Below, in pieces: positions 1-21,479 of a stretch of DNA of 27,042 nucleotides (positions within the stretch are counted from its first letter, which is position 1; the number at the start of each line of letters is the position of its first letter). The notes under the pieces were generated by a model, which saw only the letters and a program-made list of their open reading frames with translations, made no database searches and was not told where the DNA came from. A program made the translations under genes and the position numbers. The DNA comes from a virus (lineage: Duplodnaviria; Heunggongvirae; Uroviricota; Caudoviricetes): IMG/VR virus record IMGVR_UViG_2751185961_000011. The stretch is one strand, 5' to 3'.

Positions 1-339
1 ATGAAGCAACAACGAAATGCACGCATCAATAACAACACCGAACGCCACGTTGCACGCCAGCACTTCCGTAAAAATAGTGCGACCGTAACCACTGAAATCC
101 ACGCAACACCAGACGGTCACCCGGTAAAACAAACCGGCAAACACACCTGGGCGATTGGCGACACTGCCATCGTTATTCACAAAAGTTTTCGCAGTCCTGT
201 TACTGGCAGATTTAATTTCACCCTGACTCGCGGGGATGATTACTTCGGACAGGATTTCACATTTTTTGAAGCCTTAAGAACGGCAGACAGATTAATCAAC
301 GGCCTGTGTTTTCAATATCCGGGAAGTAAGTACCGATAA
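1..339 (+). CDS. Hypothetical early-region protein, possibly 5'-truncated by the window edge
   Basis: Open frame from base 1 to a stop at 339 (112 aa). Same strand and tight spacing with downstream early genes. No recognisable motif. The ATG at position 1 may be internal. Confidence 0.4.
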   Translation: MKQQRNARINNNTERHVARQHFRKNSATVTTEIHATPDGHPVKQTGKHTWAIGDTAIVIHKSFRSPVTGRFNFTLTRGDDYFGQDFTFFEALRTADRLINGLCFQYPGSKYR

Positions 340-354
340 ATAAAGGATTCAGTC

Positions 355-597
355 ATGATCGAAGCCTACAAAATACTTATTAATAACGCGTTGCAGCGTT
401 ACCACTTTGAACTCGCAAACAGGGGCGTAACTAAGGATGAAAGCCTTCGTAACTCACTGCGCGGCGCAATTATGGGACTGTATAACTGCGCGCTGGGCAG
501 CGATGACCGTGAAGCGCTGGAAGAATTAAAGTCGATTATGACAGAACTGTTTGAAGGTGAAATTGTCGAGCCTTACTTCACAGGAGTGGCAGCATGA
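355..597 (+). CDS. Hypothetical small early protein (80 aa)
   Basis: ORF with AAGGA-type RBS about 8 nt upstream of the ATG. Stop overlaps the next small ORF start (ATGA). Confidence 0.5.
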   Translation: MIEAYKILINNALQRYHFELANRGVTKDESLRNSLRGAIMGLYNCALGSDDREALEELKSIMTELFEGEIVEPYFTGVAA

Positions 598-719
598 GCA
601 TATTCCTTTCATGGGTAATTCTGATTATCTCCGTGCTTATGGTAATCGGCATTATGCGAATTATCCACACACTGAAGGATATCGAATTATTCTTTACCGG
701 CGATAAACGCCGTAAATAA
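594..719 (+). CDS. Small hydrophobic peptide (41 aa), putative single-pass membrane peptide
   Basis: Own translation: MSIFLSWVILIISVLMVIGIMRIIHTLKDIELFFTGDKRRK. ATGA overlap with the upstream ORF suggests translational coupling. Below the cutoff of the supplied ORF track, which instead shows an antisense ORF here. Confidence 0.3.
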   Translation: MSIFLSWVILIISVLMVIGIMRIIHTLKDIELFFTGDKRRK

Positions 720-933
720 AGCGAAAACCTTATGAAGAATGTAAAAGCAATACACACCATCGCCACTGTATGGGTGATATTTCAGGTGAGTGCGCTTATC
801 TGGTTAGCCCTGAAGATCTGGGAATAACCTGAAGCCGAAAGCAGGCGCGGAATAACACCAGAAAACACACGAGCAATTAATTAAGGCATTCATGCCTTCG
901 GGTTCCCTTTGTCTTTTTTTCAGGAGTCAACAA

Positions 934-1164
934 ATGAGAACAGCCGAATCACCCGGCAGAGAAATAACCGCCAGACCAGCTAACCATCATGCGCATATCA
1001 GCATGGCCGCAAGAAAAGCCGAGCGTGCACATATCTGCGAATTACTGCGCGAGCTGACTGAGACAGCGAAAGAGACACACACCTGTCCACAGGAAACCTG
1101 CGCAGCCATTGAACGACTGATTGCAATACTCGCCAACCCAGACGAACTGAAGGGGTGCGCATAA
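934..1164 (+). CDS. Hypothetical protein (about 76 aa)
   Basis: In-frame ATG at 934 inside the 892-1164 ORF, preceded by CAGGAG. Cys/His-containing but no recognisable motif. Confidence 0.45.
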   Translation: MRTAESPGREITARPANHHAHISMAARKAERAHICELLRELTETAKETHTCPQETCAAIERLIAILANPDELKGCA

Positions 1165-1745
1165 TGAACCATCTCATGATTGACACCGAAACACTGGGTA
1201 ACGGACCGGGCGCAGCCATATTCGCGATTGGGGCGGTGTTTTTCGACCCGTTCACCGGAAAGCTGGGCAAGCAGTTTGAGAAATTCATCGACCCGGTGGA
1301 TTCAGAACGCAACGGCGGAACCGTCAATGCAGCCACCGCTGTATGGTGGGCCGGACAATCCGTGGAGGCCAGATCCTGCCTGCGCAACGCAGAGGGAACA
1401 GAGCTTGCGGCAGTAACCGAATTTCTGGCGTTCATTTCACGCAATATGCATGACGAAAGCCCGGGCAATTCACTGACCATATGGTGCAAAGGCGCATCCT
1501 TCGATTTCCCGATCCTGAAATCCGCCATAACACGCACAGCCGGAGAAAAAAGCATCCCCTGGTGCTACTGGAACGAGCGCTGTATGCGCCCGCTTATCGC
1601 CATGGCTGAATCAACTGGATGGAAAATGCCAGGCAGATCAGGAAAGGAGGCTATTGCTCACACTGCACTGGGCGATGCCGTTTACCAGGCAAAGGTCGTG
1701 TCAGAAATCTGGCAGCGCTTCACAACACCATTCCTGAACATATGA
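1164..1745 (+). CDS. DnaQ-like (DEDD family) 3'-5' exonuclease
   Basis: N-terminal MIDTETLG matches the Exo I D-x-E motif. C-terminal HTALGDAV matches the Exo III H-x4-D motif. Size about 193 aa, placed upstream of dam as in P2/186-like early operons. Confidence 0.7.
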   Translation: MNHLMIDTETLGNGPGAAIFAIGAVFFDPFTGKLGKQFEKFIDPVDSERNGGTVNAATAVWWAGQSVEARSCLRNAEGTELAAVTEFLAFISRNMHDESPGNSLTIWCKGASFDFPILKSAITRTAGEKSIPWCYWNERCMRPLIAMAESTGWKMPGRSGKEAIAHTALGDAVYQAKVVSEIWQRFTTPFLNI

Positions 1746-1977
1746 GGTGAAGCCATGGTCGCCATCCTGAATGTGTGTTGCTGCCCCCCCTGAACGTGGA
1801 AAGAAAAGCCCGCGCATCGCTGCGTTTATTCCGCGACGGCGTGCGGAATTTTTCACGCATAAAACCCCACGACTACCTGGTAATAAGAATCGGTTTTCGC
1901 TGGCGATTGCTGAGCAAAAACAACGGGGCGTCATGGGATTTATTAACGCACGAAACCTATAACAAAGAGGCCGCGTT

Positions 1978-2958
1978 ATGAGCAAAGAACTGTTATCCGG
2001 CACGCCGCTTAAATGGGTGGGCGGAAAAAGTCGCATCATGAACACACTGAAGGCGCATCTGCCAGAAGCAGACTGCCTGGTTGAGCCGTTTGTGGGTGGC
2101 GCATCGGTATTCATGAACACCAGTTACAAGCGTTACATCCTGGGTGATTCCAATGGTGCGCTGATTAATTTCTACCGGCAAGCCAGGGACAACACCGACA
2201 GCCTGATCGACGAGGCGAAAACCCTGTTCCTGAACCACAACAACAGGGGTGACTATCTCATCATTCGCGAAACCTTTAACGCAGAGAATCATGCCTTCCT
2301 GAACAGCAGAACGGGAATAAGCGACCGCCGTGAACTGCGACTGGCCGCCATGTTTTTGTACCTGAACCGACACAGCTTTAACGGTTTGTTCCGCGTGAAC
2401 GGAAAAGGCGATTTTAACGTGCCTTTCGGCTGCTACCGCAAGCCCTACTTCCCTGAGCGTGAAATCCGCGCATTTGCAGACAAGGCAAACAGCACCCGAA
2501 CGCTGCTTATCCACGCAGATTTTAAGGATACGCTGAACTCTGCCAGTCACCTGTTCGGCATGGGCAACACGCTTTGCGTGTACTGCGATCCCCCTTACCT
2601 GCAATTCAGTGGCCGGGACAATTTTACCGCCTACGGAAAACCATTCGATGAAGACGAGCACGTTCGTCTGAGGGCAGCGCTTGACCGCCTTTCACAGGAA
2701 ACGGGCAGCATGACCAGCATCACCATCTCCAATTCCGACACACCGGAAACACGACGCATTTATCGGGGTTACCGGATGAACTGCATACAGGCACCACGAA
2801 GCGTTGGCGCAAGAACCCGGGAATCAGCACCGGAGGTTATCGCCACCCTGAGACAGTGCGACGCCTGCGGTCACCATGGCGGTGGCTACTGCCCGGACTG
2901 CGGACCTGTAACGGGAGATGCAACTTACAGCGTGATGTTTACCCCTGCCAGTACGTGA
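1978..2958 (+). CDS. dam: DNA adenine methyltransferase, Dam/D12-class N6-adenine MTase, with a C-terminal Cys-rich tail
   Basis: N-terminal WVGGKS and EPFVGGASVF (SAM-binding motif I-like). DPPY catalytic motif at 2587-2598. C-terminal CDACGHHGGGYCPDCG resembles a zinc ribbon. Good RBS (AAAGAGG). Confidence 0.85.
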   Translation: MSKELLSGTPLKWVGGKSRIMNTLKAHLPEADCLVEPFVGGASVFMNTSYKRYILGDSNGALINFYRQARDNTDSLIDEAKTLFLNHNNRGDYLIIRETFNAENHAFLNSRTGISDRRELRLAAMFLYLNRHSFNGLFRVNGKGDFNVPFGCYRKPYFPEREIRAFADKANSTRTLLIHADFKDTLNSASHLFGMGNTLCVYCDPPYLQFSGRDNFTAYGKPFDEDEHVRLRAALDRLSQETGSMTSITISNSDTPETRRIYRGYRMNCIQAPRSVGARTRESAPEVIATLRQCDACGHHGGGYCPDCGPVTGDATYSVMFTPAST

Positions 2959-2993
2959 ATAAACAGATGAATCAGTAACACCGGAGTCAGGAA

Positions 2994-3230
2994 ATGAATA
3001 GCGAAAACAACAAAGAGCTTTTGCGGGAATTGCGTCTCATCGCCCGTGCACATGAGGAAGCAGCAAAAGTTATCGCAGCTGCTGGAAGACCAGAGCTCGT
3101 TATCGCTTCAGCAATCTCACTGAGGATCACCATGGAAGCAATCCGGGTGATTCAGGATCAGGAAAGTGAAATCGCCACCCTTAAAAAGCAGCTCAACGAG
3201 AAATCTGCCGGGCAAAGGAGTCAGCAATGA
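2994..3230 (+). CDS. Hypothetical protein (78 aa), predicted helical
   Basis: ORF with RBS-like GGAGTCAGGAA upstream. No motif recognised. Confidence 0.5.
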   Translation: MNSENNKELLRELRLIARAHEEAAKVIAAAGRPELVIASAISLRITMEAIRVIQDQESEIATLKKQLNEKSAGQRSQQ

Positions 3231-3445
3231 TCCAGGAATCAACCGTTATCCGGTTCACAGCCAACGGCCGTCAGTACGAGGTAGACGAAAGCCTGATTGA
3301 CCAGGGCATGACACGCCAGGACTCACGCAATTCTGAGATGCATCACATCCGCCTTATCAACGGTTCGCACTTCTGCGCCACGAACATGGAAGAAGTACGC
3401 GTGCTGACAGCAACACGCAATACGGGAGGTAAAGCATGGCAGTGA
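3227..3445 (+). CDS. Hypothetical protein (72 aa)
   Basis: ATGA start/stop overlap with the upstream ORF (translational coupling). No motif recognised. Confidence 0.5.
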   Translation: MIQESTVIRFTANGRQYEVDESLIDQGMTRQDSRNSEMHHIRLINGSHFCATNMEEVRVLTATRNTGGKAWQ

Positions 3446-3786
3446 TTTATATCGCCGGTCCAATGACCGGATACAAAGATCACAACAGAACGGCGTTTTT
3501 CACAGAGGCGATGAGGCTCGCGGCAGACGGGCACGTTGTGCTGAACCCTGCCACGTTGCCGGAAGGATTAAGCCAGCAGCAGTACATGAGCATTTGTATT
3601 CCGATGCTCATGTGTGCCGATGCCATTTACTTACTGGAAGGCTGGGTGGATTCAGCTGGCGCGCGGGCGGAGTACGTAATGGCACTCAAACTGAACATGC
3701 CAGTGTCATTCCCGGAAAACCGGGCAGCCGGCGAAACCGTCGCGCAGCTGCTTCACAAATCAAAAGCCACACAGGCGACTGAGTAA
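3436..3786 (+). CDS. DUF4406-like / nucleoside 2-deoxyribosyltransferase-like small protein
   Basis: N-terminal MAVIYIAGPMTG... pattern is typical of the deoxyribosyltransferase-like fold proteins common in P2-like early regions. 116 aa. Confidence 0.5.
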   Translation: MAVIYIAGPMTGYKDHNRTAFFTEAMRLAADGHVVLNPATLPEGLSQQQYMSICIPMLMCADAIYLLEGWVDSAGARAEYVMALKLNMPVSFPENRAAGETVAQLLHKSKATQATE

Positions 3787-4224
3787 CCGACCGGAGATCG
3801 AAACATGATTGCGCGAAGAGCTACCAACCGTCTCACAGGCTTTATTCCAGGCAAGGTTGATCATGCACTCCATCACGGGGCTGTCACTTTCCTCAACAAA
3901 GGAGAGGCGCGCAATCATGCATTCCGGGGTGAGCACGTGGCGCTGGCTAATCAGTCTTTGATAGCTAAGCGCCTGCCATTCAGCCTTTTCAGCTCTGATA
4001 GAAAGAGAGGAAGCCATGACCTGCCACACCAGAAAGAGCACCACACTGGCGAAAACAAACGTTGCGCTGTCGCAAAAAATGAATGCGGCAACAATCGCAA
4101 GGAAAGCGCTAATCCTCAGAACCAAGGAAGCGCGACGGTGGAGAAGGCTTGTCATGTGTTCAAGCCAGTAGCTGTACCACAGGTCAAAAAGAATTTCGTA
4201 ATCAGAAGGGAGCTTATCACTCAT
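3760..4224 (-). CDS. Putative small membrane protein encoded antisense to the early operon (start uncertain; alternative in-frame start at 4284)
   Basis: Minus-strand ORF with two clear hydrophobic segments (LVLRISAFLAIVAAFIFC and FVFASVVLFLVWQVMASSL). The competing + strand ORF 3805-4911 translates to low-complexity sequence. Confidence 0.4.
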   Translation of the reverse strand: MSDKLPSDYEILFDLWYSYWLEHMTSLLHRRASLVLRISAFLAIVAAFIFCDSATFVFASVVLFLVWQVMASSLSIRAEKAEWQALSYQRLISQRHVLTPECMIARLSFVEESDSPVMECMINLAWNKACETVGSSSRNHVSISGRLLSRLCGF

Positions 4225-4607
4225 CAGAAACACCCCGCGTATGCAGACAATCACCAGTTGCCAGGTGATATTAATTCGCAACATTCTAACCACATCAGCA
4301 CGCAACACAAAAACCGCTTGCCAGCGCTCGTCGTGTCGGGTTACATTTCCGCTGCACCTCATAAAACGGGTGCCGGGTTTCGCAGCCTGCTGACAACCAA
4401 AGCGCACAACCGCGCCAGCGGTTTTTTTGTGCGTACTGTATTGCCACGTCTTTTTCGCGTCAGAATTATGGCGGGGCGTACGGGGCCGACTTCGGTCGGG
4501 CCGGGTTCTTTGGTTGCCGGTACTGCGAACCTCGTACGCCTCGCCACCCACAGTTTCGCAGCTCTGGATGGTGAGTTTTCAAAACTTACAACCAAAGAGG
4601 CCACACC

Positions 4608-4829
4608 ATGGCAAACCGCAAGCAACAGCGCGCCCGCGCTGAGCGTCTTCACATCCGCAGCGAAATCAACCGCAGACTCCATCGGGCTGCATCTGTCGCC
4701 TTTATCATGCAGTCAAACGTATTACACCGACTTAACGACGGTATCGCTGCCGGGTATTACGCGGCAGTCTTCAGCTATCTCGCCGAAGATCTGGCAGAAC
4801 TACAAAGCCTCATCAACCAGCACCGATAA
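4608..4829 (+). CDS. Hypothetical basic protein (73 aa)
   Basis: Strong RBS (AAAGAGG) 7 nt upstream of the ATG. Arg-rich N-terminus. Confidence 0.45.
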   Translation: MANRKQQRARAERLHIRSEINRRLHRAASVAFIMQSNVLHRLNDGIAAGYYAAVFSYLAEDLAELQSLINQHR

Positions 4830-4897
4830 ACCACATCCTGAAGCCATCCCGCACCCGTGCGCGGGAGGCTTCCGCACGTCTGTTACCGGAGGTTCTC

Positions 4898-5089
4898 ATG
4901 AAGAGCGTTAAGGGACTTTCAGATATTCAGGACTTTTTTAACTGGATGTGGGCGGTGGATCCCCTGCTGGCTTCCCGCCTGAACAACTGGCACGACTACT
5001 ACCGCCGCGCTGTAAACAGGCCGCCCGCAGCATCACCACATACGGGGATTTCTCCTTCACCGTTGACGGTCGTTACCGCGTGGACGTGA
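4898..5089 (+). CDS. Hypothetical protein (63 aa); may be the 5' part of a frameshifted gene continuing in 4948-5313
   Basis: GGAGG RBS 5 nt upstream of the ATG. Overlaps the next ORF in a different frame. Confidence 0.35.
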   Translation: MKSVKGLSDIQDFFNWMWAVDPLLASRLNNWHDYYRRAVNRPPAASPHTGISPSPLTVVTAWT

Positions 5090-5313
5090 AAGGTGACGGT
5101 GATGGCTTTGGTTTATTTCACATCAACGGCACCGACAGTACCGCCATCAGCTGGTCATCGTCAGAGATGGCACTGGTTCTGGAAATGACAACCCACAGCG
5201 TGGCCGTGAAAGGCATATACACCGCAGAAGACTTTATCGGTGAATACCAGCGCCTTCTCGTGCTGTACCGCGCGGCGTTTCAGGAGGTCACTGGCGGGGA
5301 GTACGACGCATGA
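4948..5313 (+). CDS. Hypothetical protein immediately upstream of and coupled to gene A (start uncertain; GTG at 4948)
   Basis: ORF ends with an ATGA overlap onto the gpA start at 5310. No canonical ATG near its 5' end. Confidence 0.4.
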   Translation: MGGGSPAGFPPEQLARLLPPRCKQAARSITTYGDFSFTVDGRYRVDVKGDGDGFGLFHINGTDSTAISWSSSEMALVLEMTTHSVAVKGIYTAEDFIGEYQRLLVLYRAAFQEVTGGEYDA

Positions 5314-8093
5314 GTGACCGCAATGCACAGCTGGCGTACCCGTGGAACGCACCGCTACCGGTTATCGATCCTGAAACGTTCGGCAGAGCACAACCAACCG
5401 CATTACGCCAGGCCATTCAGAGCTACATCAACGAGGACATTCGCATTGATGCCAGACTGGATGAAGAAACCGTCTCCTTCCTGACAAACACAGACGAAGG
5501 CAAGCGAATTAATTCGCACCTTCACCACGACGAAGAGCGTCGGATCAGACTGGAAAAACTGGCGCGGCACAAACGCGAAAATCCGCCAACGCTGGTATCG
5601 GAAGCCATGGCAGAACTTCGCGCCCTGCCCTCGTTTCTTGGTAACGCGCTCATTCGTGATCTGGCGCGTTTAAACCGCAAACAACAAAGCGCCCGCAATG
5701 AAGGCGTGAAAAACAACAACACTCACGTGGCCGATAACTTCGTTCGCCGTGGACTGCGCACACGCCTGAAACGCATCGAACAGGTGAATGAATGCTTCGC
5801 CACGACAGCATTCAAAGCCACCGCAGCACGCCATCGCCTTGATGAATTACTCATGCTGCCACAACTCAACCGTAATCAAATTCAGCGCCTTGCCACACTA
5901 ACGGCGGCGGCATTTTCCACCGAACTGGAACGCATATGTGATGAAGTTACTGAGCGGACAGGAAAAGGCGACGATAACCTGTTTACCTGGTTGCTGACTT
6001 ACCAGCAGCTGGCGCGCATGGCAATAAAACTGGGCGTGAACCCACCATACTGGCCGTCACTCGAGATCAGACGTGACCGCCGCACGGCACCAGACCCTGA
6101 ACTGGTACCGGGCGCGGTAATGCGTATCACCTGCGCCACCTGGTGGAACAACCAGCTGCGCCACCTCGCTGATCTCTGGCGGGAGGAATTACTGCGTGCC
6201 GCCGGAAGAGTATCGCGCAAGGCATCCCCCTACATCAGCCATGAGTCACTCCAGGAATTCCGGGAGAAACGCCAGCGCACCCGTGATTTTCTCAAAAGCT
6301 GGGACATTGAAAACGAAGACGGTGAACGCCTGAGTCTGGAGGACGTGTACTGGTCAGGGCTGGGGAATCCGCGCAACCGCCGCAACGAGATGATGGCCTG
6401 CGTCAGAGGGATGGAACAGGTCGCCGAATCGCGTGGTGACTCCGCGTTCTTCGTGACAGTAACCTGCCCTTCCCGCTTTCACAGCGTGAACGAGGACGGC
6501 AGCCTGAACCCGAAATACAACGGTGCCACCGTGCGCGATGCCAGTGATTATCTGGTTTACGACGTCTTTGCAGCTGCAAGAAAAAAACTCAACAAAGAAG
6601 GCCTGAGCTGGTACGGGGTGCGCACCGTTGAGCCACACCATGACGGCACACCGCACTGGCACATGCTGGTATTCACCGCCCCGGACAATGAAGAACGCAT
6701 CATTGAAATCATGCGTGACGCAGCAATCAAATCAGATCGCGCAGAACTGGGGGATGATATTTCTCCGCGCTTCAAATGCGAAAAAATCGACCCGGCAAAA
6801 GGCACACCGGCAAGTTACATTGCAACCTATATCGGCAAGAACCTGGACGCCAGCGCCTTCCATAACAATGACCCGAAAACCGGCAAACCTTACGCTGATG
6901 AGGAATCCGGAAAAACCATGGCGGAAACTGTGGAAAATGCCATTGCCTGGGCGAGCCTCCACCGCATCCGCCAGTTCCAGTTTTTCGGTATCCCGCCCCG
7001 CCAGGTATGGCGTGAACTGCGCCGTCTTGCCGGACAGATGGAGCGAAACCCGGCATCGCCAAAGCGCATCGACAATGACGACATTGATGCCATTCTGGCC
7101 GCCGCAGATGTGGGGTGTTTTGCCACCTACATGACTCGCCAGGGTGGTGTGAATATTCCGCGCAACCTGTATCTGATCCGCACCGCATACGAAACCGCAG
7201 ATGAGGCCAATGATTACGGGGAATTTCCTCAACGTATCTGGGGAATATGCGCCCCGTCGCTCGGCGAGCGCTACACCATCTGTACCCATCCGGACGAATG
7301 GAAACTGGTCAGAAAAGAAGCGAAATCCGACAACAGCACGGACGAGGGTTTTGACGTTGGGGGCGGCTTCGCCGCACCTTGGACTCGTGGCAATAACTGT
7401 CCCCGTGTACAGGAAACAGGCAACAGCGGGACAGAACAGTCGGAAGAGCAACCAACACCGTGGACGCAGATCCCTGACGGCGTTGATGTGGATGAGTGGA
7501 TGCGCTCACTGAAACGGCACGAACGCCGGGCGCTGATGCGTTCGCTGCGTGACAAACAGGCAAAAAACAGCAGTGATGAAATGCAGAACTGGACACAGAG
7601 CCGCAAACAGCCACGGCCTTTGCCTGATAACCACGAGTTACTCGCTAAAGAATGGCGGGAGTCTGCCGAATCTCTCGGCCTGCATATCGGTGAACAGCAG
7701 ATGCAGTACCTGTTACGGGGCGGCACTCTGTACGTTGACGGCAGCATCATTGCACCGCAGGGATTTGAAATTGTACGCAAACCGGATACCCGCCCGGACA
7801 GCCGAATCACGCAGCTCTGGCAGCGCCTGAGCCGTAATCACGGCGTAAGCAGCACGGAGATCCGCCATAACCCGGTCGCCAGCTATCTGGAGCAGCTCGG
7901 GGCATCAGACCCCGAAGCCGCCGCACGCCTGGCATCCACAATTCAGCAGGACCAGAACACCATGAAAACTCCCGTTACCGTGCTTTCTGACATGCTGCGC
8001 GCCATCCGTGACACAGAGCACGCACAAAGAATCAATGAAACCACTGAACGCGCCCGCCGCAAGGCTACTTTGCTCCAAAAGAGAGGCAAATAG
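5310..8093 (+). CDS. A: Rolling-circle replication initiator endonuclease (P2 gpA-like)
   Basis: 927-aa ORF. HUH motif HWHMLVF (His codons 6654-6662). Paired catalytic tyrosines Y-IAT-Y in SYIATYIGKNLD (Tyr codons 6816-6818 and 6828-6830), matching the phiX174 A / P2 A RCR motif 3. Position between the early genes and the hotspot matches P2. Confidence 0.9.
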   Translation: MSDRNAQLAYPWNAPLPVIDPETFGRAQPTALRQAIQSYINEDIRIDARLDEETVSFLTNTDEGKRINSHLHHDEERRIRLEKLARHKRENPPTLVSEAMAELRALPSFLGNALIRDLARLNRKQQSARNEGVKNNNTHVADNFVRRGLRTRLKRIEQVNECFATTAFKATAARHRLDELLMLPQLNRNQIQRLATLTAAAFSTELERICDEVTERTGKGDDNLFTWLLTYQQLARMAIKLGVNPPYWPSLEIRRDRRTAPDPELVPGAVMRITCATWWNNQLRHLADLWREELLRAAGRVSRKASPYISHESLQEFREKRQRTRDFLKSWDIENEDGERLSLEDVYWSGLGNPRNRRNEMMACVRGMEQVAESRGDSAFFVTVTCPSRFHSVNEDGSLNPKYNGATVRDASDYLVYDVFAAARKKLNKEGLSWYGVRTVEPHHDGTPHWHMLVFTAPDNEERIIEIMRDAAIKSDRAELGDDISPRFKCEKIDPAKGTPASYIATYIGKNLDASAFHNNDPKTGKPYADEESGKTMAETVENAIAWASLHRIRQFQFFGIPPRQVWRELRRLAGQMERNPASPKRIDNDDIDAILAAADVGCFATYMTRQGGVNIPRNLYLIRTAYETADEANDYGEFPQRIWGICAPSLGERYTICTHPDEWKLVRKEAKSDNSTDEGFDVGGGFAAPWTRGNNCPRVQETGNSGTEQSEEQPTPWTQIPDGVDVDEWMRSLKRHERRALMRSLRDKQAKNSSDEMQNWTQSRKQPRPLPDNHELLAKEWRESAESLGLHIGEQQMQYLLRGGTLYVDGSIIAPQGFEIVRKPDTRPDSRITQLWQRLSRNHGVSSTEIRHNPVASYLEQLGASDPEAAARLASTIQQDQNTMKTPVTVLSDMLRAIRDTEHAQRINETTERARRKATLLQKRGK

Positions 8094-8190
8094 CACTTTA
8101 GTAATCAAAATGATGATGAGAAAAAACAATTACAAAGTTGGATATGCCTTTTCCATCATGAGGGATGAGATGTGAATCGCTAACCGAATA

Positions 8191-8220
8191 TTGTGTTGAA
8201 TAGAATGCAATTGATATAAT
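8191..8220 (+). promoter_or_regulatory. Candidate sigma70 promoter for the island operon
   Basis: TTGTGT (8191-8196), 18-nt spacer, TATAAT (8215-8220) in the AT-rich region upstream of the island methyltransferase. Found by eye only. Confidence 0.3.
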
Positions 8221-8353
8221 TCCCCTTAATTCATTGAAAACTGGATTTTTTGCATAACTATGCAAATATCTATGGACGGCGACGATGTTTTTTATCGGGA
8301 AAACTCAAGTGCCATGTTAAGATTATGTTTATTTTTTACTGAGAAAATCGTGG

Positions 8354-9199
8354 ATGACAAAGCCTTCTCATTTTAGAACCCCTCTTCGTTATCCGGGAGG
8401 TAAGGCAAAATTCTTGCCACATATTGAACAAATACTCCGCAACAATGATCTCATTGGTGGATGTTATGCTGAACCTTATGCAGGTGGAGCCGGTGTAGCA
8501 TTAGGTTTGCTCCTTAACGGTCTTGTTGAAAATATCTTCATAAATGATATTGATCCTGCCCTTTATTCTTTTTGGTTTGCAGTGGTTAATCATAACGATC
8601 TGTTATGTGAAATGATTGATGAAGTTCCTGTGACTATTGAAAATTGGCATACTCAAAAGGAGATACTCCTAAACAATGATAAATATAGTATGCTTGAAGT
8701 CGCATTATCTACTTTCTTTTTAAATAGAACAAACCGTTCAGGAATACTTAAGGCTGGCGTTATTGGAGGGAAAGAACAAAAAGGACCATGGAAGTTAGAT
8801 GCAAGATTCAACAAAAAAGAGTTAATTAAAAGGATTGAACTAATTGGTGCATATAAGGAGAAAATTTACGTATCGAATTTTGATGCTGCAGATTTTCTGC
8901 TACACCAAAAAGCATTACTACCCCAAAATAGTCTAATATATCTTGATCCACCTTATTATGTTAAAGGAGCAGAGTTATATAGAAATTTTTATAAACATGA
9001 TGATCATGTAAAAATCGCTAATACACTACGTGAAATTCAACTACCTTGGGTTGTGTCTTATGACAATGTGCCTGAAATAAAAAGCATATATCATGAATTC
9101 AACATGACTGATTATACGCTTAATTATACTGCACAAGATAAGAAAAAAGGTCTAGAAATTATCATTTATAATCATGGTATAAAAATCCCTGACATTTAA
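8354..9199 (+). CDS. Dam-family (D12-class) N6-adenine DNA methyltransferase, island copy
   Basis: N-terminal PLRYPGGKAKF and AEPYAGGAGVALG (SAM-binding motif I). DPPY catalytic motif at 8945-8956. 281 aa. AT-rich codon usage unlike the rest of the prophage. Confidence 0.85.
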   Translation: MTKPSHFRTPLRYPGGKAKFLPHIEQILRNNDLIGGCYAEPYAGGAGVALGLLLNGLVENIFINDIDPALYSFWFAVVNHNDLLCEMIDEVPVTIENWHTQKEILLNNDKYSMLEVALSTFFLNRTNRSGILKAGVIGGKEQKGPWKLDARFNKKELIKRIELIGAYKEKIYVSNFDAADFLLHQKALLPQNSLIYLDPPYYVKGAELYRNFYKHDDHVKIANTLREIQLPWVVSYDNVPEIKSIYHEFNMTDYTLNYTAQDKKKGLEIIIYNHGIKIPDI

Positions 9200-9216
9200 A
9201 TTTAAGGATGATATAG

Positions 9217-10914
9217 ATGATTAAAGAAATTAGTTTTAAAAAATTTAAGAAACTGATAGATATTGACTTCTCATTCAATGAAGACATCAATATAATATCA
9301 GGAACCAATGGGACATGTAAGACAACATTGCTTCATTTAATTAGCAATGGTTTCCAAATACCACCATCTAGATCACAAAATTATTCAAATAGTAATTGTG
9401 TTAGAGTTATAAAATCTATAAACAAAATAGCCAACCCAAAAATGGAAGCAATTGTTAGGGAATCAAAAAATTACACCGATCCGGCAGAGGGAACAAAAGG
9501 TGTGTTATTTTCTATTAACTATTTGGATCATAGCACACTAGACTTCAGAAAGCACAACTCAAAAAATCCAGACGAAGCGCAACGGTATGCTATCAAACCA
9601 GTATACCCACGCGGAAAAGAAAAACAATCACTTCCAGCTAAACCAGTTTTATATCTTGGATTATCGCGACTATTCCCGATTGGTGAAACTAAAGACGACG
9701 CCCTTACAAAAATTCCGTTAAACCTACCAGAAGAGTATGTTGGTTATATATCGAAAATATATAATGAACTTTTGGGCATTAATATTATAAATATAGAATC
9801 AAACAATATCGGAGATTTTAAAGCTGGCCCATTATTTGATACCGATAACCCAGCAATTGATTCTAATACCATATCATCCGGGGAAGACAATATATTCATT
9901 ATAATCAAGGCATTAGTTAGCCTTAGGTATTATTTTGAATCACTTATTCAATCCACTGATCAAAAAGAAAGCATTCTGTTAATAGATGAATTTGATGCCA
10001 CTTTACATCCTTCTTTACAGATAAGATTATTAGATAAAATTTATCAATACGCAAAAGATTATAAGATTCAAGTATTTTTCACAACGCACAGTCTGACATT
10101 GCTAGAATATGCTTTTCATAAAAAATACCATGTTGTCTATCTAATTAACAATATTACAAAGGCTCTGCTTTTGGATAATCCTGATATATTAAAAATAACA
10201 ATGTATCTGAAAACACAAACAAAGGATGAGATATACACAAGGAACAAGATACCAGTTTTCACGGAAGATGAAGAAGCTCGCTTTTTATTTAATGAAATAC
10301 TTGGTTATTGGATAAGCAAATATCCAAATTTTGCTATAGTTAGTAATTCATTTCACTTAATTGATTGTTTCATTGGTGCAGACAATTTAAAAACTATTTT
10401 TAATGATTCTCATCTTAAGGAAACCTCGTTAAAATCAATTTGTATTCTTGATGGAGATCACAGCCCTGAGGATCAGAGAGGAATTATATCACTGCCGGGT
10501 GAAAAAGCTCCAGAACAATTGATATTTGAGCATTGTGAGCACCTTTATAATACCGACGACTCTTCCTTCTGGGAAAATCAGGATATAATTAACAATGGTT
10601 TTTCGAAAGAGTTATACTTACTCAAGATACGTCCTCAATTACAATCAATTGAAACTGAAATTCAGAAAAGAAAAGACAACCATGAGTCTACATCCGGTTT
10701 AAGAAGAAAATTAAATAAGAAAATATTCAATCAGCATATTGAATTCTTTAGAATGATTACAAGAAACTGGTTAAACAAACCAGAAAATCAGAAATCTCTC
10801 CAGTATTTTTACAATGGATTACGATCCTTATTCTACCGGGTTACACCAACAAACGGCATTGACAGAAAAATTTGGGATTTTGACTATAACAAAATCATTA
10901 AAGAGGATAAATAA
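9217..10914 (+). CDS. OLD-family-like ABC-type ATPase with putative C-terminal TOPRIM nuclease domain
   Basis: Walker A GTNGTCKTT (9301-9327). Walker B LLIDEFD (D-E codons 9985-9990). H-loop-like VFFTTHS. C-terminal acidic motifs VFTEDEE (10255-10275) and ILDGDHS (DGD at 10450-10458) fit the TOPRIM glutamate plus DxD pattern. 565 aa, close to P2 Old in size and in the P2 old locus. AAGGA RBS 7 nt upstream and 17 nt after the methyltransferase stop. Confidence 0.75.
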   Translation: MIKEISFKKFKKLIDIDFSFNEDINIISGTNGTCKTTLLHLISNGFQIPPSRSQNYSNSNCVRVIKSINKIANPKMEAIVRESKNYTDPAEGTKGVLFSINYLDHSTLDFRKHNSKNPDEAQRYAIKPVYPRGKEKQSLPAKPVLYLGLSRLFPIGETKDDALTKIPLNLPEEYVGYISKIYNELLGINIINIESNNIGDFKAGPLFDTDNPAIDSNTISSGEDNIFIIIKALVSLRYYFESLIQSTDQKESILLIDEFDATLHPSLQIRLLDKIYQYAKDYKIQVFFTTHSLTLLEYAFHKKYHVVYLINNITKALLLDNPDILKITMYLKTQTKDEIYTRNKIPVFTEDEEARFLFNEILGYWISKYPNFAIVSNSFHLIDCFIGADNLKTIFNDSHLKETSLKSICILDGDHSPEDQRGIISLPGEKAPEQLIFEHCEHLYNTDDSSFWENQDIINNGFSKELYLLKIRPQLQSIETEIQKRKDNHESTSGLRRKLNKKIFNQHIEFFRMITRNWLNKPENQKSLQYFYNGLRSLFYRVTPTNGIDRKIWDFDYNKIIKEDK

Positions 10915-10990
10915 TGTATTCTAATAGAATATAAACATCAAAGCTATATTTTTTACACATATCAAGAGTAAAAAATAATTTAACTTTTAC

Positions 10991-11030
10991 ATAACGACCT
11001 CTTTTACAAATAAGTAGAAAAGGTCGTTAT
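10991..11030. repeat. Imperfect 17-nt inverted repeat (hairpin) downstream of the island operon
   Basis: ATAACGACCTCTTTTAC (10991-11007), loop AAATAA, GTAGAAAAGGTCGTTAT (11014-11030); 15 of 17 positions complementary. Possible terminator or operator. Confidence 0.4.
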
Positions 11031-11153
11031 AACTCTCATCTCCATAGCATGTAATTTTCTTTGCATATTTTCACATAACAGTCAGGGATGTATTTATAAG
11101 CAACGTCGTATACATAGGCTCAATTTTTCTATAAATAAGCACTCCGTTCGGTT

Positions 11154-11180
11154 TGCACAATAATGCACAAATTTGCACAA
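11154..11180. repeat. Three direct TGCACAA heptamers phased at exactly 10 bp
   Basis: TGCACAA at 11154-11160, 11164-11170 and 11174-11180, followed by a T7 run, at the AT-rich to GC-rich transition before the cos-proximal region. Confidence 0.45.
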
Positions 11181-11471
11181 TTTTTTTGAACGACTTTTTG
11201 CCCTTTCGGCCCGCATGGCGGCTGGATCCGTCAAGGATCGTGCGTGCACAAAAAAAACGCGTTTTCTGCGCGCAGGCGACGAGGGAAGGGCGCCCGAATT
11301 GAGGGGTGGAAGGCAGGTTGCTTTATTTGGGGTCGTATTGCGCGTGATACGCCAGCAGTGAAGCCTGTTTTAAAAAACCACATCAAAACATGGTCAGGGA
11401 AACAGGCCGTCAGAATGCGTCTGGCGAGGTCGGAGATCGGGAGGGAAACGGACGTCAGGAGCTGGAGAGTC

Positions 11472-11494
11472 GGGGCATAAATTTTTTATGCCCC
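11472..11494. repeat. Perfect 10-bp-stem palindrome just downstream of the portal gene stop
   Basis: GGGGCATAAA (11472-11481) and TTTATGCCCC (11485-11494) with a 3-nt loop. Could be the Q-P operon terminator or a cos-associated element. Confidence 0.5.
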
Positions 11495-11521
11495 GGCGAA
11501 GCAGCCGACAAGCGAAGCGCG

Positions 11522-12565
11522 TCAGCTGGCGCCATCCTGAAGCAGCGAATAGGGATTAAAGCGCATCACTTCAACCCCAAGCCATTCATTGACATGCTTC
11601 ATCGCTTCCATGACCGGTTGCAACTCGTTGATGAAAAATACCCTCGCCGCCTTCTCAACGTCACCGAACGCCGCGTTCCCGTCAGGCATTGCCCCCATCA
11701 GCTGAGGCGGTACACGGTGAGCCGCAAGGATATCGTCGCGGGCACTCCCCTTGATGTTAAGGAATTCGTCCTTCGCGGTGATTTGCTGGAACGGCAGTAT
11801 TTGCACACCATCCTTGCCGCCACCTGGCGCGTGCAGAAGGATATTGCGGAACGCCCCCTTGCCACGGGATTCCGTGAGTGTTTTCTTGATGGCTTCCACG
11901 CTTTCAGCGTTTGCCTGGGCGGCACCAACATAGACAATGCACCCGGCATGTGAACCGTTGTCATAGTAGAGCTTGCGGAACGTATCCGCTGAGTTCGACA
12001 GACTCACCGACAGCACCCCACCGATATACTCCGGCATCCCGTAGATTTCCTGGTTGATATCGGGGTTCAGAACGTGGCACACAGCCCCCTTACGGAAAGC
12101 AAATTCAGAACCATCATCATTGAGGTACCAGTACGTATCGAGATCACTGCCCCGCCGCGTGTATTTCGCCAGCGCAGGACGAAGCGCAATGGGTTCACCG
12201 AACTTGTTGCGGCGGACTTCAAGATAGGCATTACCGAACACGAACCAGTCCAGCGCAAACGCGGAAAACGCCTGGCGGGACAGTAGCAGATGAGGAACAA
12301 AGCAGCCGTTCAGGGCATTACGCTTAAAATACAGGGCCGACTGGTGCCATGATGCACGACGTGAGGCGCGAGCAATGGCATTCCAGTCCATGGGGGTGTC
12401 ATAGTAGCGGCCATTATCGGCGCACGACATGTTATCAAGAAGATCAAGACGGCTTGCTTCATAAGGACCGTCAAACGTGAAAGCACTGAGTGACGGCGCT
12501 GATTTCAGTGCATCAGCCAGTGAGCCCGTGCCGCGCTTTCCGGTGTATTTTTTACGTTTACTCAT
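11522..12565 (-). CDS. Q: Portal protein (P2 gpQ-like)
   Basis: 347 aa on the minus strand, immediately downstream of the large terminase gene; size and position match P2 Q (about 344 aa). Basic N-terminus MSKRKKYTGKRG. Confidence 0.88.
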   Translation of the reverse strand: MSKRKKYTGKRGTGSLADALKSAPSLSAFTFDGPYEASRLDLLDNMSCADNGRYYDTPMDWNAIARASRRASWHQSALYFKRNALNGCFVPHLLLSRQAFSAFALDWFVFGNAYLEVRRNKFGEPIALRPALAKYTRRGSDLDTYWYLNDDGSEFAFRKGAVCHVLNPDINQEIYGMPEYIGGVLSVSLSNSADTFRKLYYDNGSHAGCIVYVGAAQANAESVEAIKKTLTESRGKGAFRNILLHAPGGGKDGVQILPFQQITAKDEFLNIKGSARDDILAAHRVPPQLMGAMPDGNAAFGDVEKAARVFFINELQPVMEAMKHVNEWLGVEVMRFNPYSLLQDGAS

Positions 12566-12570
12566 TGTGT

Positions 12571-14304: not shown

Positions 14305-14370
14305 GCGCCCCCCTTCATTAGCTGAAACAAAGAGTAAACGCCCCGCCCTTTACCGGATATTCAGCGCCGT

Positions 14371-14388
14371 TGTAGCGGTGTTCTTACA
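14371..14388 (+). promoter_or_regulatory. Candidate Ogr/Delta-type late activator site (TGT-N12-ACA) in the divergent P/O intergenic region
   Basis: TGTAGCGGTGTTCTTACA: TGT 14371-14373, 12-nt spacer, ACA 14386-14388, about 73 bp upstream of the O start codon. Confidence 0.35.
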
Positions 14389-14460
14389 ACAACCCCGCCT
14401 TGAGATGCCATCCCCTCCCCCCGCATGATGGAATACACCATTCCGGAAAGGAGATTTTTC

Positions 14461-15297
14461 ATGGCATCCAAAAACGCGCCAGTACGAAAAAAATTCCGCG
14501 TCGCCGTCTCGGGCACAACCATCGACGGACGTGAAATTTCAGGCCAGATGTTGCGTCAGGCCGCAGAGAACTACGACCCGGACGTGTGGGGATCACGGGT
14601 GAACGTGGAGCATATGCTTTCACGAATGCCGTCCAGTGAATTCAGTGCTGTGGGGGATGTGATTTCACTCTCCACCGAAGAAATCACGGAAGGCAAGCTG
14701 GCCGGTCGCACCGCACTGTATGCCGAAATAGAGCCAACCCACCGTATGACGGAGATGTTGCGAGACGGCAAGAAAATCTACTCAAGCATCGAGCTTGAAC
14801 CCAACATTGATGCCGTTGGCGGACCTTACGTAACCGGCCTGGCAATGACCGACACCCCGGCAAGTCTCGGCACTGAACGACTGAAATTTGCCGCTCAACA
14901 GCGCGCCAGCATCATGCAGTTCAGCAACCGCGCCGGTGAAGTTGCCATGTTCACCGAATGCATGGAAGCGGAACTGGTGGCATCCGTCCAGGACAGCAGC
15001 GAAGAAAGCCGGAAGTGGTTTTCGCGCGTCATGGCGCTCATCAGCAAAACCCGTGACACGGACAGCGAGCAGTTCGCTCACGTGCGCGAAGCCGTCGAGA
15101 GCATTGCCACGGAACAGGCCGGCCTTCTGGATCGCTTCCATGCGATGGAAGAGCAACAGCGCAGTGATAAGGCATCAATGGAAGCCCTGACCCGCGAACT
15201 GACTGAACTGAAGGCGCAGCTGAAAACCGAAGACGCAGACAAGGAACAGCGCTTTGCTTCAACCGGTGGCAACAGCCACGCCCTGGCTGATTTTTAA
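14461..15297 (+). CDS. O: Capsid scaffolding protein (P2 gpO-like)
   Basis: Start chosen at the ATG preceded by AAGGAG (inside the 14425 ORF). 278 aa. Position between P and N. Coiled-coil-like acidic C-terminal half. Confidence 0.85.
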   Translation: MASKNAPVRKKFRVAVSGTTIDGREISGQMLRQAAENYDPDVWGSRVNVEHMLSRMPSSEFSAVGDVISLSTEEITEGKLAGRTALYAEIEPTHRMTEMLRDGKKIYSSIELEPNIDAVGGPYVTGLAMTDTPASLGTERLKFAAQQRASIMQFSNRAGEVAMFTECMEAELVASVQDSSEESRKWFSRVMALISKTRDTDSEQFAHVREAVESIATEQAGLLDRFHAMEEQQRSDKASMEALTRELTELKAQLKTEDADKEQRFASTGGNSHALADF

Positions 15298-15312
15298 CAG
15301 AGGAACAAAATC

Positions 15313-16407: not shown

Positions 16408-16415
16408 CGCATCAT

Positions 16416-16435
16416 GGCGGGCACATGTGCCCGCC
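16416..16435 (+). other. Perfect 20-nt palindrome (stem-loop) immediately after the capsid gene stop
   Basis: GGCGGGCACATGTGCCCGCC with no following T-run. Likely an RNA structure affecting capsid transcript stability or read-through. Confidence 0.5.
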
Positions 16436-16456
16436 GGTTAATCAGGAGTCGAATAC

Positions 16457-17266: not shown

Positions 17267-17374
17267 TAACACCGGACCCGACCTCGTCGGCAGGCGGCGC
17301 GACCGGTGATCTGATCGCTGACTCCCGGTTATTTTCACCGGTCGCCCACCGCCTGATCTACAGGAGAAGACATC

Positions 17375-18069: not shown

Positions 18070-18071
18070 TT

Positions 18072-19431: not shown

Positions 19432-19434
19432 ACG

Positions 19435-21414: not shown

Positions 21415-21419
21415 CAATG

Positions 21420-21443
21420 CTTCCCCGCCATCCGGCGGGGAAG
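21420..21443 (+). other. Hairpin immediately after the esterase stop
   Basis: CTTCCCCGCC (21420-21429), loop ATCC, GGCGGGGAAG (21434-21443). No T-run follows. Confidence 0.4.
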
Positions 21444-21479
21444 CTCGCTGACAACCGGGAAAATAAAAGGAGCAAGCCA

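What the first reader, a model, noticed from the sequence alone, without database searches (positions are those of the whole stretch)
1978..9199. Two Dam-family methyltransferases of different origin in one prophage
The early-operon Dam (1978-2958, GC-rich, C-terminal Cys-rich tail) and the island methyltransferase (8354-9199, AT-rich, no tail) both carry DPPY and SAM-binding motifs but differ sharply in composition and sequence, so they were acquired independently. They may have different target specificities, one acting as general anti-restriction and the other as the self-protection partner of the adjacent nuclease.
Basis: partly seen in the sequence, partly recalled or inferred. Interest (0 to 1): 0.55.

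Follow-up and report, generated by a model that had tools for sequence, protein, structure and literature searches.

The report
Backbone Dam plus RM-like hotspot cassette
This P2-like E. coli prophage carries an ordinary phage Dam methylase in its early genes and, at the well-known P2 cargo hotspot, a separately acquired methylase paired with an ATPase-nuclease, a candidate defence cassette that is already catalogued but has never been tested.

Summary
Both ORFs are D12-class DNA methyltransferases with motif I and DPPY. They are 23% identical, with 54% versus 34% GC.

They are separate modules:
- **Dam1 (1978-2958)** is a backbone early-operon gene of Peduoviridae. It passes the NCBIfam Dam cutoff and keeps E. 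coli Dam's GATC-contact residues. Its Cys4 tail is conserved in the two other Peduoviridae Dams I aligned.
- **MT2 (8354-9199)** fails the Dam cutoff. It matches the PD-lambda-5 methylase model (E 1e-121), and its nearest solved relative is an N4-cytosine methylase.
- **The neighbour of MT2 (9217-10914)** is an ABC ATPase with a probable Toprim nuclease domain.

The ATPase sits beside an MT2-type methylase in 70 of 72 informative loci from many bacterial phyla and one archaeon. About a quarter of these loci add a PD-lambda-5_A gene.

The cassette swaps between prophage backbones together with the 3' end of gpA. Rousset et al. 2022 already list it as P2-hotspot system #18, "RM-like system", with 166 occurrences. 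I found no evidence it was tested.

Independent acquisition is well supported. MT2 as the self-marking partner of the effector is plausible but unproven, and an abortive tRNase effector is a live alternative. Overall the finding is ordinary, with a moderately interesting uncharacterised cassette.

The parts
1978..2958 (+). Dam1: backbone early-operon orphan Dam-family N6-adenine methyltransferase, predicted to target GATC. Its start overlaps the stop of the upstream ParE-like ORF.
   Evidence: Pfam D12 E 4e-52. TIGR00571 226 bits against a cutoff of 114.85. E. coli Dam 2G1P E 7.5e-52, with K9, N120, L122, R124, P134 and Y138 conserved. Best PADLOC hit is 'orphan methyltransferase'. The same gene position is seen in Peduoviridae SW3 and ST16-OXA48phi5.4.
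2857..2901 (+). Cys4 (CxxC-x7-CxxC) zinc-ribbon-like tail of Dam1, residues 294-308. E. coli Dam has no such tail.
   Evidence: Cys positions. The motif is invariant in the alignment with the SW3 and Klebsiella phage Dams. There is a weak match to RecE model NF007259, positions 526-556. Pfam zinc-ribbon hits are all sub-threshold.
5310..8093 (+). gpA replication endonuclease, the left border of the P2 hotspot. Its 3' part (about 6387/7407 to 8093) travels with the island.
   Evidence: Pfam Phage_GPA E 2.6e-108. blastn breakpoints against the EC2 and AR_0013 prophages.
8094..11130 (.). AT-rich cargo island at the P2 tin/old hotspot, between gpA and cos/gpQ.
   Evidence: GC 31.9% against 54.3% for the backbone. 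99.3-99.6% identical in 14 complete E. coli genomes and 98.1% in a fifteenth, always next to gpA. Listed as system #18 in Rousset 2022 Table S5B.
8212..8220 (+). Candidate extended -10 promoter (TGATATAAT) for the island operon. This is an inference.
   Evidence: Read directly from the sequence. The consensus scan did not list it because the -35 hexamer is poor.
8354..9199 (+). MT2: D12-class methyltransferase of the PD-lambda-5_B family. The target motif and the modified base (m6A or m4C) are unknown; the target is probably not GATC.
   Evidence: PADLOC PD-Lambda-5_B E 1.2e-121 and MTase_II PDLC03358 E 2e-107. TIGR00571 below cutoff. The only PDB sequence hit is M.CbeI 7M6B, an alpha-class N4-cytosine MTase with DPPY.
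9217..10176 (+). ABC-type ATPase domain of the 565-aa partner protein, residues 1 to about 320.
10234..10506 (+). Probable Toprim nuclease core of the partner protein, residues about 340-430.
10507..10914 (+). C-terminal helical domain of the partner protein. Function unknown.
   Evidence: AF2 model with mean pLDDT 89 over the modelled residues 320-565; this part is all-helical. No convincing fold match.
10991..11030 (+). Strong hairpin downstream of the ATPase gene, likely the end of the island transcript. It has no U-tract.
   Evidence: -18.7 kcal/mol, z-score -8.3 against shuffles.
11522..12565 (-). gpQ portal gene, the right border of the hotspot.
   Evidence: ORF. Called as Phage_portal in the identical prophage in other assemblies.

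Best explanation
The two methyltransferases are unrelated modules with different roles.

**Dam1** is a backbone gene of this Peduoviridae lineage.
- It is transcribed with the early lytic operon (exonuclease, ParE-like ORF, Dam, DUF4406, gpA).
- It most likely methylates GATC on replicating phage DNA, so that progeny stay fully Dam-methylated.

**MT2** is the modification half of a mobile two-gene, RM-like defence cassette.
- The cassette sits in the P2 tin/old hotspot and is probably expressed from its own promoter in the lysogen.
- MT2 marks host and prophage DNA at a short motif that is not GATC.
- The adjacent ABC ATPase with a Toprim domain is the effector. It uses ATP to sense or act on incoming DNA that lacks the mark, and it cuts nucleic acid.

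**Shown here:**
- domain identities;
- modular exchange between prophage backbones;
- ATPase-methylase linkage across phyla;
- kinship with PD-lambda-5.

**Inferred:**
- the timing of expression;
- the target motifs;
- that methylation protects self;
- that the Toprim domain is catalytically active, and what it cuts.
For: **Dam1**
- TIGR00571 above its cutoff, and GATC-contact residues conserved.
- Same position in the early operon of other Peduoviridae.
- Best PADLOC hit is the orphan-MTase model.

**Cassette**
- GC 32% against 54% for the backbone.
- The backbone matches the EC2 prophage at 95-98% but has no match over 7407-11154. The island matches the AR_0013 prophage, which has a divergent backbone and no early Dam.
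- Among the complete E. coli genomes listed, none carries both modules in one prophage.
- An MT2-type methylase lies within 2 kb of the ATPase in 70 of 80 loci. Eight of the other ten are cut by contig ends.
- These loci span Bacillota, Pseudomonadota, Actinomycetota, Spirochaetota, Planctomycetota, Kiritimatiellia and one archaeon.
- Gene order varies but the adjacency is kept. Divergence of the two proteins is correlated: Spearman 0.36, with 0 of 500 permutations reaching it.
- MT2 matches PD-Lambda-5_B at E 1e-121. PD-lambda-5 is a validated broad-range defence that needed an mrr-deleted host.
- 17 of 69 loci also carry PD-Lambda-5_A at E<1e-5, and up to 20 at looser thresholds.
- Walker A, Walker B and the E...DxD motif are invariant in the ATPase family.
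- A defence protein with the same architecture, HEC-04, needs both its Walker A lysine and its Toprim acidic residues.
- Rousset et al. annotated this exact gene pair as an 'RM-like system'.
Against: - No experiment bears on this cassette, and the methylation motif is unknown.
- Two Rhizobiaceae homologues with complete flanks have no MT2-type methylase within the 4-kb flanks held for each locus. So the effector is not always lethal without its methylase.
- The closest structural relatives of the Toprim domain (AriB, P2 Old) are reported to be tRNases triggered by phage cues, not methylation-sensitive DNases.
- The nearest solved relative of MT2 is an N4-cytosine enzyme, so even the modified base is unsettled.
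Confidence: 0.55

Rival explanations
1. A methylation-linked abortive-infection sentinel rather than a restriction enzyme. The ABC ATPase-Toprim protein works like PARIS or P2 Old: it is held inactive, it is triggered by a phage cue, and it then cleaves tRNA or other RNA to arrest the cell. The cue could be unmodified replicating DNA, an anti-restriction protein, or interference with MT2. MT2 supplies or gates the signal rather than shielding DNA from cutting. This matches Vassallo's reading of PD-lambda-5 as 'RM+Abi'.
For: - The best structural match of the C-terminal domain is AriB, followed by the retron Eco2 Toprim.
- P2 Old, the native occupant of this same hotspot, is reported to be an abortive tRNase that senses DNA structures.
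- PARIS AriB cleaves tRNA.
- Vassallo describes PD-lambda-5 as a compacted RM+Abi system, and its A protein carries a HEPN RNase-type domain.
- ATPase homologues exist without a methylase inside defence islands.
Against: - Near-obligate linkage to a methylase (70 of 72 loci) is not seen for PARIS, OLD or HEC-04, and is most simply explained by self-marking.
- The DUF4435 and OLD Toprim Pfam profiles do not match.
- No trigger is known.
Confidence: 0.27
2. The two island genes work independently. MT2 is an orphan methylase that protects the phage and host DNA from foreign restriction enzymes. The ATPase-Toprim protein is a stand-alone defence like HEC-04/IbfA or Class 1 OLD. They merely share a hotspot.
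For: - HEC-04/IbfA and P2 Old act as single genes.
- MT2-family methylases occur without the ATPase, for example in a Pseudomonas ICE and in several phages.
- P2 hotspots often hold more than one system.
Against: - Adjacency is kept across phyla despite changes in gene order, usually with gaps of 0-70 bp.
- The divergence of the two proteins is correlated.
- In the Pseudomonas ICE the methylase sits beside PD-lambda-5_A, so it is not an orphan there either.
Confidence: 0.1
3. The two methylases are redundant. Both methylate GATC, and MT2 simply boosts Dam activity in the lysogen.
For: Both are D12-class with DPPY. PGAP names both of them 'DNA adenine methylase'.
Against: - MT2 lacks Dam's GATC-contact residues and fails the Dam family cutoff.
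- PD-lambda-5 could only be cloned in an mrr-deleted K-12 host, which is already GATC-methylated.
- E. coli already has Dam.
Confidence: 0.05

Closest known systems
E. coli Dam and phage-encoded orphan Dam methylases (TIGR00571); the early-operon Dams of Peduoviridae such as Salmonella phage SW3 and Klebsiella phage ST16-OXA48phi5.4
   Same: Dam1 has the alpha-class D12 fold, motif I, DPPY and the GATC-contact residues. It has no cognate nuclease and lies in the early operon between cox and gpA.
   Different: Dam1 has a roughly 40-residue C-terminal Cys4 tail that E. coli Dam lacks but that is conserved in the two other Peduoviridae Dams I aligned. It is about 50% identical to the deposited phage Dams.
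PD-lambda-5 (Vassallo et al. 2022, PMC9519451): a ParB/HEPN protein plus a methyltransferase
   Same: MT2 matches the PD-Lambda-5_B model at E 1e-121. It is prophage or mobile-element cargo. About a quarter of related ATPase+MT2 loci also encode PD-Lambda-5_A.
   Different: The window has no PD-Lambda-5_A gene. The partner here is an unrelated ABC ATPase-Toprim protein, so tools that require both A and B would probably not call the system (my inference; I ran no such tool).
Rousset et al. 2022 (PMC9122126), P2 hotspot system #18 'MethyltransfD12 | AAA_15/AAA_21', annotated 'RM-like system'
   Same: The same two proteins at the same locus. In the portion of the table shown, I saw one substitution in each protein. 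The accessions in Table S5A, WP_001581117 and WP_001581118, are those annotated in E. coli AR_0013. 166 occurrences are recorded.
   Different: It is only a catalogue entry. In what I read I found no phage assay, no domain analysis of the C-terminus, no link to PD-lambda-5 and no distribution outside E. coli.
OLD-family and related ABC ATPase-Toprim defence proteins: P2 Old, GajA, retron Eco8 OLD, PARIS AriA/AriB, HEC-04/IbfA
   Same: An N-terminal ABC ATPase followed by a C-terminal Toprim-like domain with conserved E and DxD. It occupies the very locus where P2 carries old.
   Different: Sequence similarity is remote and mostly confined to the ATPase motifs. There is no Pfam Toprim or DUF4435 match. 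None of the described OLD classes is defined by a linked methyltransferase.
Type II restriction-modification systems
   Same: A small methylase sits next to a putative nuclease. The methylase matches a model that PADLOC labels Type II methyltransferase (PDLC03358, E 2e-107). The pair moves as a unit.
   Different: The putative nuclease is an ATP-binding ABC-Toprim protein, not a PD-(D/E)XK, HNH or GIY-YIG endonuclease. Sequence-specific cleavage has not been demonstrated.

Membership tests
Dam family (NCBIfam TIGR00571, GATC N6-adenine MTase): Dam1 | Scores above the curated family cutoff | tested here: met
   226.3 bits against a cutoff of 114.85. E. coli Dam structures match at E 7.5e-52.
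Dam family: Dam1 | GATC-contact residues of E. coli Dam (K9, Y119, N120, L122, R124, P134). The list of contacts is recalled from the Dam-DNA structure literature, not checked here. | tested here: met
   The alignment shows K, N, L, R and P identical, with Y119 replaced by F. The same residues are conserved in the SW3 and Klebsiella phage Dams.
Dam family: Dam1 | Methylates GATC in vivo | not testable with these tools
   Needs DpnI/MboI digestion or a methylome after expression in a dam-negative host.
Dam family: MT2 | Scores above the curated family cutoff | tested here: not met
   71.2 bits against a cutoff of 114.85. No Dam structure is found at E<=0.01; the only hit is M.CbeI.
D12-class alpha methyltransferases (Pfam PF02086): both proteins | Pfam gathering score, with motif I before DPPY | tested here: met
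   177.8 and 74.2 bits against a cutoff of 22.
PD-lambda-5 | B component (methyltransferase) | tested here: met
   PDLC04018 E 1.2e-121, full length.
PD-lambda-5 | A component (ParB/HEPN protein) adjacent | tested here: not met
   The neighbour's best 25 PADLOC hits contain no PD-Lambda-5_A model. True A homologues score E 5e-30 to 3e-254. Only 260 bp lie between gpA and MT2.
PD-lambda-5 | Anti-phage activity | not testable with these tools
   Needs plaque assays.
OLD-family nucleases / PARIS (fused AriAB) | ABC ATPase domain with Walker A, Walker B and signature motifs | tested here: met
OLD-family nucleases / PARIS (fused AriAB) | C-terminal Toprim or DUF4435 domain recognisable by profile | tested here: inconclusive
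OLD-family nucleases | Genetic context of a described class: alone, with a UvrD-type helicase, or with a retron | tested here: not met
   Linked to a D12 methylase in 70 of 72 informative loci. The classes are as described in PMC10568477.
HEC-04 / IbfA | Match to the family model over the full length, and acting as a stand-alone gene | tested here: not met
   PDLC04149 E 1.2e-16, but only over residues 249-445. tblastn against plasmids returned nine records, none annotated as ibfA and none from the enterobacterial IncI plasmids that carry it. The gene is not stand-alone.
Type II restriction-modification | A cognate endonuclease that cuts the unmethylated recognition site | not testable with these tools
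   The partner has no known restriction-endonuclease fold. Its activity is unknown.

The most novel reading that the evidence does not exclude
The island encodes a methylation-gated sentinel of the OLD/PARIS type. The idea is that an ABC ATPase-Toprim protein reads the presence or absence of the MT2 mark on DNA and then cuts nucleic acid, possibly tRNA rather than DNA. This would give a two-gene 'RM-triggered abortive infection' system. It would be modular with the ParB/HEPN effector of PD-lambda-5, and it is spread across many bacterial phyla and at least one archaeon. It would be the first OLD-like effector coupled to an epigenetic self-mark.
Probability: 0.25. Interest if true: 0.65.

Novelty: new variant of a known kind. 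Interest (0 to 1): 0.32.

Why it matters
The headline observation, two methylases in one prophage, is routine for P2-like phages and needs no new biology.

The useful by-product is a sharper description of a common but untested hotspot cassette:
- It shares its methylase with the validated PD-lambda-5 system.
- It replaces or supplements the ParB/HEPN partner with an OLD-like ABC ATPase-Toprim protein.
- It is conserved from enterobacterial prophages to Firmicutes and one archaeon.

If methylation really gates an OLD/PARIS-type effector, that would connect two large classes of immunity: restriction-modification and the ABC-Toprim sentinels. It would also give a compact model for studying how such sentinels are triggered.

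Tried and rejected
**Searches that gave nothing or could not be run**
- Pfam on the isolated C-terminal 246 residues gave no hit at E<=10.
- Foldseek against the PDB gave no significant hit.
- The afdb50 fold library was not available.
- Krishnan et al. 2020 on ABC ATPases (PMC7544218), which may describe ABC-anchored RM-like systems, is not held.
- A full-text search for WP_001581117 and WP_001581118 found nothing.
- A literature search for methylase-linked OLD or Toprim systems found no specific description.
- The promoter scan listed no plus-strand site upstream of MT2. I propose an extended -10 read by eye instead.
- tblastn of the ATPase against plasmids returned nothing annotated as ibfA, so that relationship is seen at HMM level only.

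**Readings considered and rejected**
- Fused PARIS: the DUF4435 profile is not matched, and the methylase linkage does not fit.
- Class 1 OLD, the native P2 gene at this locus: the PDB sequence match to TsOLD is limited to residues 1-42, E 1e-4.
- A complete PD-lambda-5 system: there is no A gene.
- Redundant GATC methylation by both enzymes: contradicted.
Full report
**What the window is.** The window is a P2-like (Peduoviridae) prophage of E. coli.
- The plus strand carries the early operon: an Rv2179c-like 3'-5' exonuclease (1155-1745), a ParE-like ORF (1775-1981), Dam1 (1978-2958), a DUF4406 protein (3436-3786) and the gpA replication endonuclease (5310-8093).
- The portal gene gpQ lies on the minus strand at 11522-12565, followed by the structural genes.
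- Between gpA and gpQ lies a 3-kb AT-rich island, 8094-11130. This is the cos-proximal tin/old locus of P2. Rousset et al. (PMC9122126) and Vassallo et al. (PMC9519451) describe it as a hotspot for defence cargo.
- The same prophage, with identical Dam1, occurs in several draft assemblies and metagenomes. There it is integrated next to ppa, a PemK/MazE pair and a sugar ABC transporter.

**Checking the observation.**
- Both ORFs are real, and both are D12-class methyltransferases: Pfam PF02086 at E 4e-52 and 1.7e-20.
- Dam1 has motif I at residue 36, DPPY at residue 204 and a CxxC-x7-CxxC tail at residues 294-308. MT2 has motif I at residue 40, DPPY at residue 198 and no tail.
- They share 23% identity, E 5e-11.
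- Dam1 has 54.3% GC (GC3 63.6%), like the backbone. MT2 has 33.7% (GC3 22.7%), and its neighbour has 31.5%.
One caveat: only Dam1 passes the curated Dam-family model TIGR00571 (226 bits against a cutoff of 114.85). MT2 scores 71 bits.

**Dam1.**
- It is clearly related to E. coli Dam (E 7.5e-52). In the printed alignment it keeps K9, N120, L122, R124, P134 and Y138, with Y119 replaced by F. That these are the GATC contacts is my recollection of the Dam-DNA structure work.
- Its best PADLOC match is the orphan-methyltransferase model.
- Dams about 50% identical, covering the query to residue 320-326 and so including the tail, lie in the early operon of other Peduoviridae. Salmonella phage SW3 has one between cox and gpA. 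Klebsiella phage ST16-OXA48phi5.4 has one in the same order as here: exonuclease, small ORF, Dam.
- The Cys4 tail is invariant in the three-way alignment.
- SW3 carries three methylases, so several methylases in one such phage is not unusual.
- Dam1 is therefore a backbone gene. By analogy with P2, whose early operon is repressed in lysogens (established knowledge), it should act during lytic replication. The idea that it keeps progeny DNA fully GATC-methylated is an inference.

**MT2.**
- It matches the PADLOC PD-Lambda-5_B model at E 1.2e-121 and a model that PADLOC labels Type II methyltransferase at E 2e-107.
- Vassallo et al. found that PD-lambda-5 (a ParB/HEPN protein plus a methyltransferase) protects broadly. 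They called it a compacted RM+Abi system and had to clone it in an mrr-deleted MG1655.
- MG1655 is already Dam-methylated, so that requirement argues the family writes something other than GATC methylation.
- In the pairwise alignment, Dam's contact residues are not kept in MT2.
- The only solved relative found by sequence is M.CbeI (7M6B). It is an alpha-class N4-cytosine methyltransferase that also has DPPY. The motif therefore does not settle whether MT2 makes m6A or m4C.

**The neighbour (9217-10914, 565 aa).**
- Pfam sees AAA_15 and AAA_21.
- In an alignment of 41 homologues (45-77% identity), the Walker A, signature, Walker B and H-loop motifs are invariant. In the C-terminal third, E350, D351, E353, R355, D412-G-D414 and L426-P-G...P432-E433 are also invariant.
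- Foldseek gave nothing significant, although AriB had the highest TM-scores in its list. Pfam gave nothing.
- The PADLOC models for HEC-04 (an ABC ATPase fused to Toprim) and ATPase-Toprim_I-B align through residues 445 and 420, at E about 1e-16.
- HEC-04 needs both its Walker A lysine and its Toprim E/D/D residues for defence.
- I conclude that the protein is an ABC ATPase with a probable Toprim nuclease domain, remotely related to the OLD, PARIS and HEC-04 proteins. It is not PD-Lambda-5_A.

**Is the pair a unit?**
- A scan of one genome per species returned 80 loci encoding the ATPase. They come from Bacillota, Pseudomonadota, Actinomycetota, Spirochaetota, Planctomycetota, Kiritimatiellia and one archaeon.
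- An MT2-type methylase (phmmer E 1e-43 to 1e-103) lies within 2 kb in 70 of them. Eight of the other ten are cut by contig ends.
- Two Rhizobiaceae loci with full flanks have none. One of them was checked and carries HerA-like and AbiTii genes instead.
- The commonest order is ATPase then methylase. The window's order, methylase first, is the minority (7 of 69). Gaps between the genes are usually 0-70 bp.
- Pairwise divergence of the two proteins is correlated: Spearman 0.36, with 0 of 500 permutations reaching it. Relatedness among the loci inflates such tests, so this counts as support only.
- 17 of 69 loci, or up to 20 at looser thresholds, also encode a PD-Lambda-5_A homologue in various positions.
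- A Pseudomonas ICE has the canonical A+B pair without the ATPase.
- The MT2 family thus anchors a modular set: A+B, B+ATPase, and A+B+ATPase.

**Independent acquisition.**
- The window matches an E. coli EC2 prophage at 97.6% over 588-7407 and at 95.5% over 11459-15251. There is no match across 7407-11154, where EC2 carries other genes.
- It matches the AR_0013 prophage at 92.6% over 6387-11287, with the island itself at 99.6%. The structural genes are only 66-70% identical, and AR_0013 has no early Dam.
- Among 5,426 complete E. coli genomes, the island is in 15 and the Dam module is in 31. No listed genome has both in one prophage.
- The cassette, together with the 3' end of gpA, has therefore been exchanged between backbones. 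This is the behaviour described for this hotspot.

**Prior knowledge.**
- The protein sequences there are essentially those of the window. Table S5A gives the accessions WP_001581117 and WP_001581118, which are the ones annotated in AR_0013.
- I found no evidence that it was tested, and no paper linking it to PD-lambda-5 or to Toprim.

**Mechanism.**
- The best-supported reading (about 0.55) has two parts. Dam1 is a lytic-phase orphan GATC methylase. MT2 plus the ATPase-Toprim protein is an RM-like defence cassette expressed in the lysogen, in which MT2 marks self DNA and the ATPase-Toprim protein attacks unmarked invaders.
- A candidate extended -10 promoter (TGATATAAT, 8212-8220) and a strong hairpin after the ATPase gene (-18.7 kcal/mol, z -8.3) fit an autonomous transcription unit.
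- The main rival (about 0.27) is that the effector is an abortive sentinel like PARIS or P2 Old, which are reported tRNases, with methylation gating its trigger rather than shielding a cleavage site.
- Independent functions (about 0.1) and redundant GATC methylation (about 0.05) fit the data poorly.

**Verdict.** The functional split is reasonable but unproven. The two-methylase situation is ordinary for this phage family. The cassette is already catalogued though uncharacterised, and its kinship with PD-lambda-5 and with OLD-like proteins gives it moderate interest.

Noticed in passing
window 1775-1981 (+): A 68-aa ParE-like toxin-domain ORF (Pfam PF24732, E 8e-18) whose stop overlaps the Dam1 start (ATGA). 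The same order, exonuclease then small ORF then Dam, is seen in Klebsiella phage ST16-OXA48phi5.4. No antitoxin partner is evident.
   Followed up: partly
window 2857-2901 (Dam1 residues 294-308): The Cys4 zinc-ribbon-like tail is conserved in the three Peduoviridae Dams aligned, which are about 50% identical overall. It gives a weak hit to positions 526-556 of the RecE (exodeoxyribonuclease VIII) model. Its function is unknown.
   Followed up: partly
window 3760-4551 (-): A 263-aa ORF on the opposite strand inside the early operon, with a hydrophobic stretch that may span the membrane. It has no Pfam or PADLOC hit, and it is called as 200 or 263 aa in otherwise identical prophages. It may be a moron or an exclusion gene.
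   Followed up: partly
window 19435-21414 (+): A 659-aa DUF1737-SASA-DUF6645 protein (SASA is a sialate O-acetylesterase domain), lying after the ORFs at 18328-19316 in a local GC dip. A DUF6645 protein follows the lysis genes (holin to LysC) in the AR_0013 prophage.
   Followed up: partly
window 1-8093 and 11131-27042: CTGCAG (the PstI site) is absent from the 24-kb backbone: 0 found against 6.6 expected from base composition. TCGA is also depleted, 41 found against 90 expected.
   Followed up: no
window about 6387-8093 (3' part of gpA): The recombination breakpoints of the hotspot cassette lie inside gpA, so the C-terminal part of the replication protein is exchanged together with the cargo.
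   Followed up: yes
L023 (= L002) 1005-1814; also L031 1018-1941 and L041 1358-2215: Some Firmicute loci with the ATPase+MT2 pair also carry a second D12 methylase more like Dam1, a few kb away. In Desulfosporosinus the locus also holds phage holin and tail-fibre genes. This is the same 'two D12 methylases' pattern as in the window.
   Followed up: no
L065 3971-5737 and L067: The Rhizobium and Pseudorhizobium homologues of the ATPase-Toprim protein have no MT2-type methylase within the 4-kb flanks held. In L065 the neighbours are a HerA-like ATPase and an AbiTii protein; L067 was not examined further.
   Followed up: partly
L098 (Salmonella phage SW3) 3392-9238: This P2-like phage encodes three methyltransferases: an early-operon Dam, a C5-cytosine MTase just before gpA, and another 'DNA methylase' after gpA.
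   Followed up: no
window 10991-11030: A 16-bp interrupted hairpin directly after the island operon (-18.7 kcal/mol, z -8.3), with no U-tract.
   Followed up: yes
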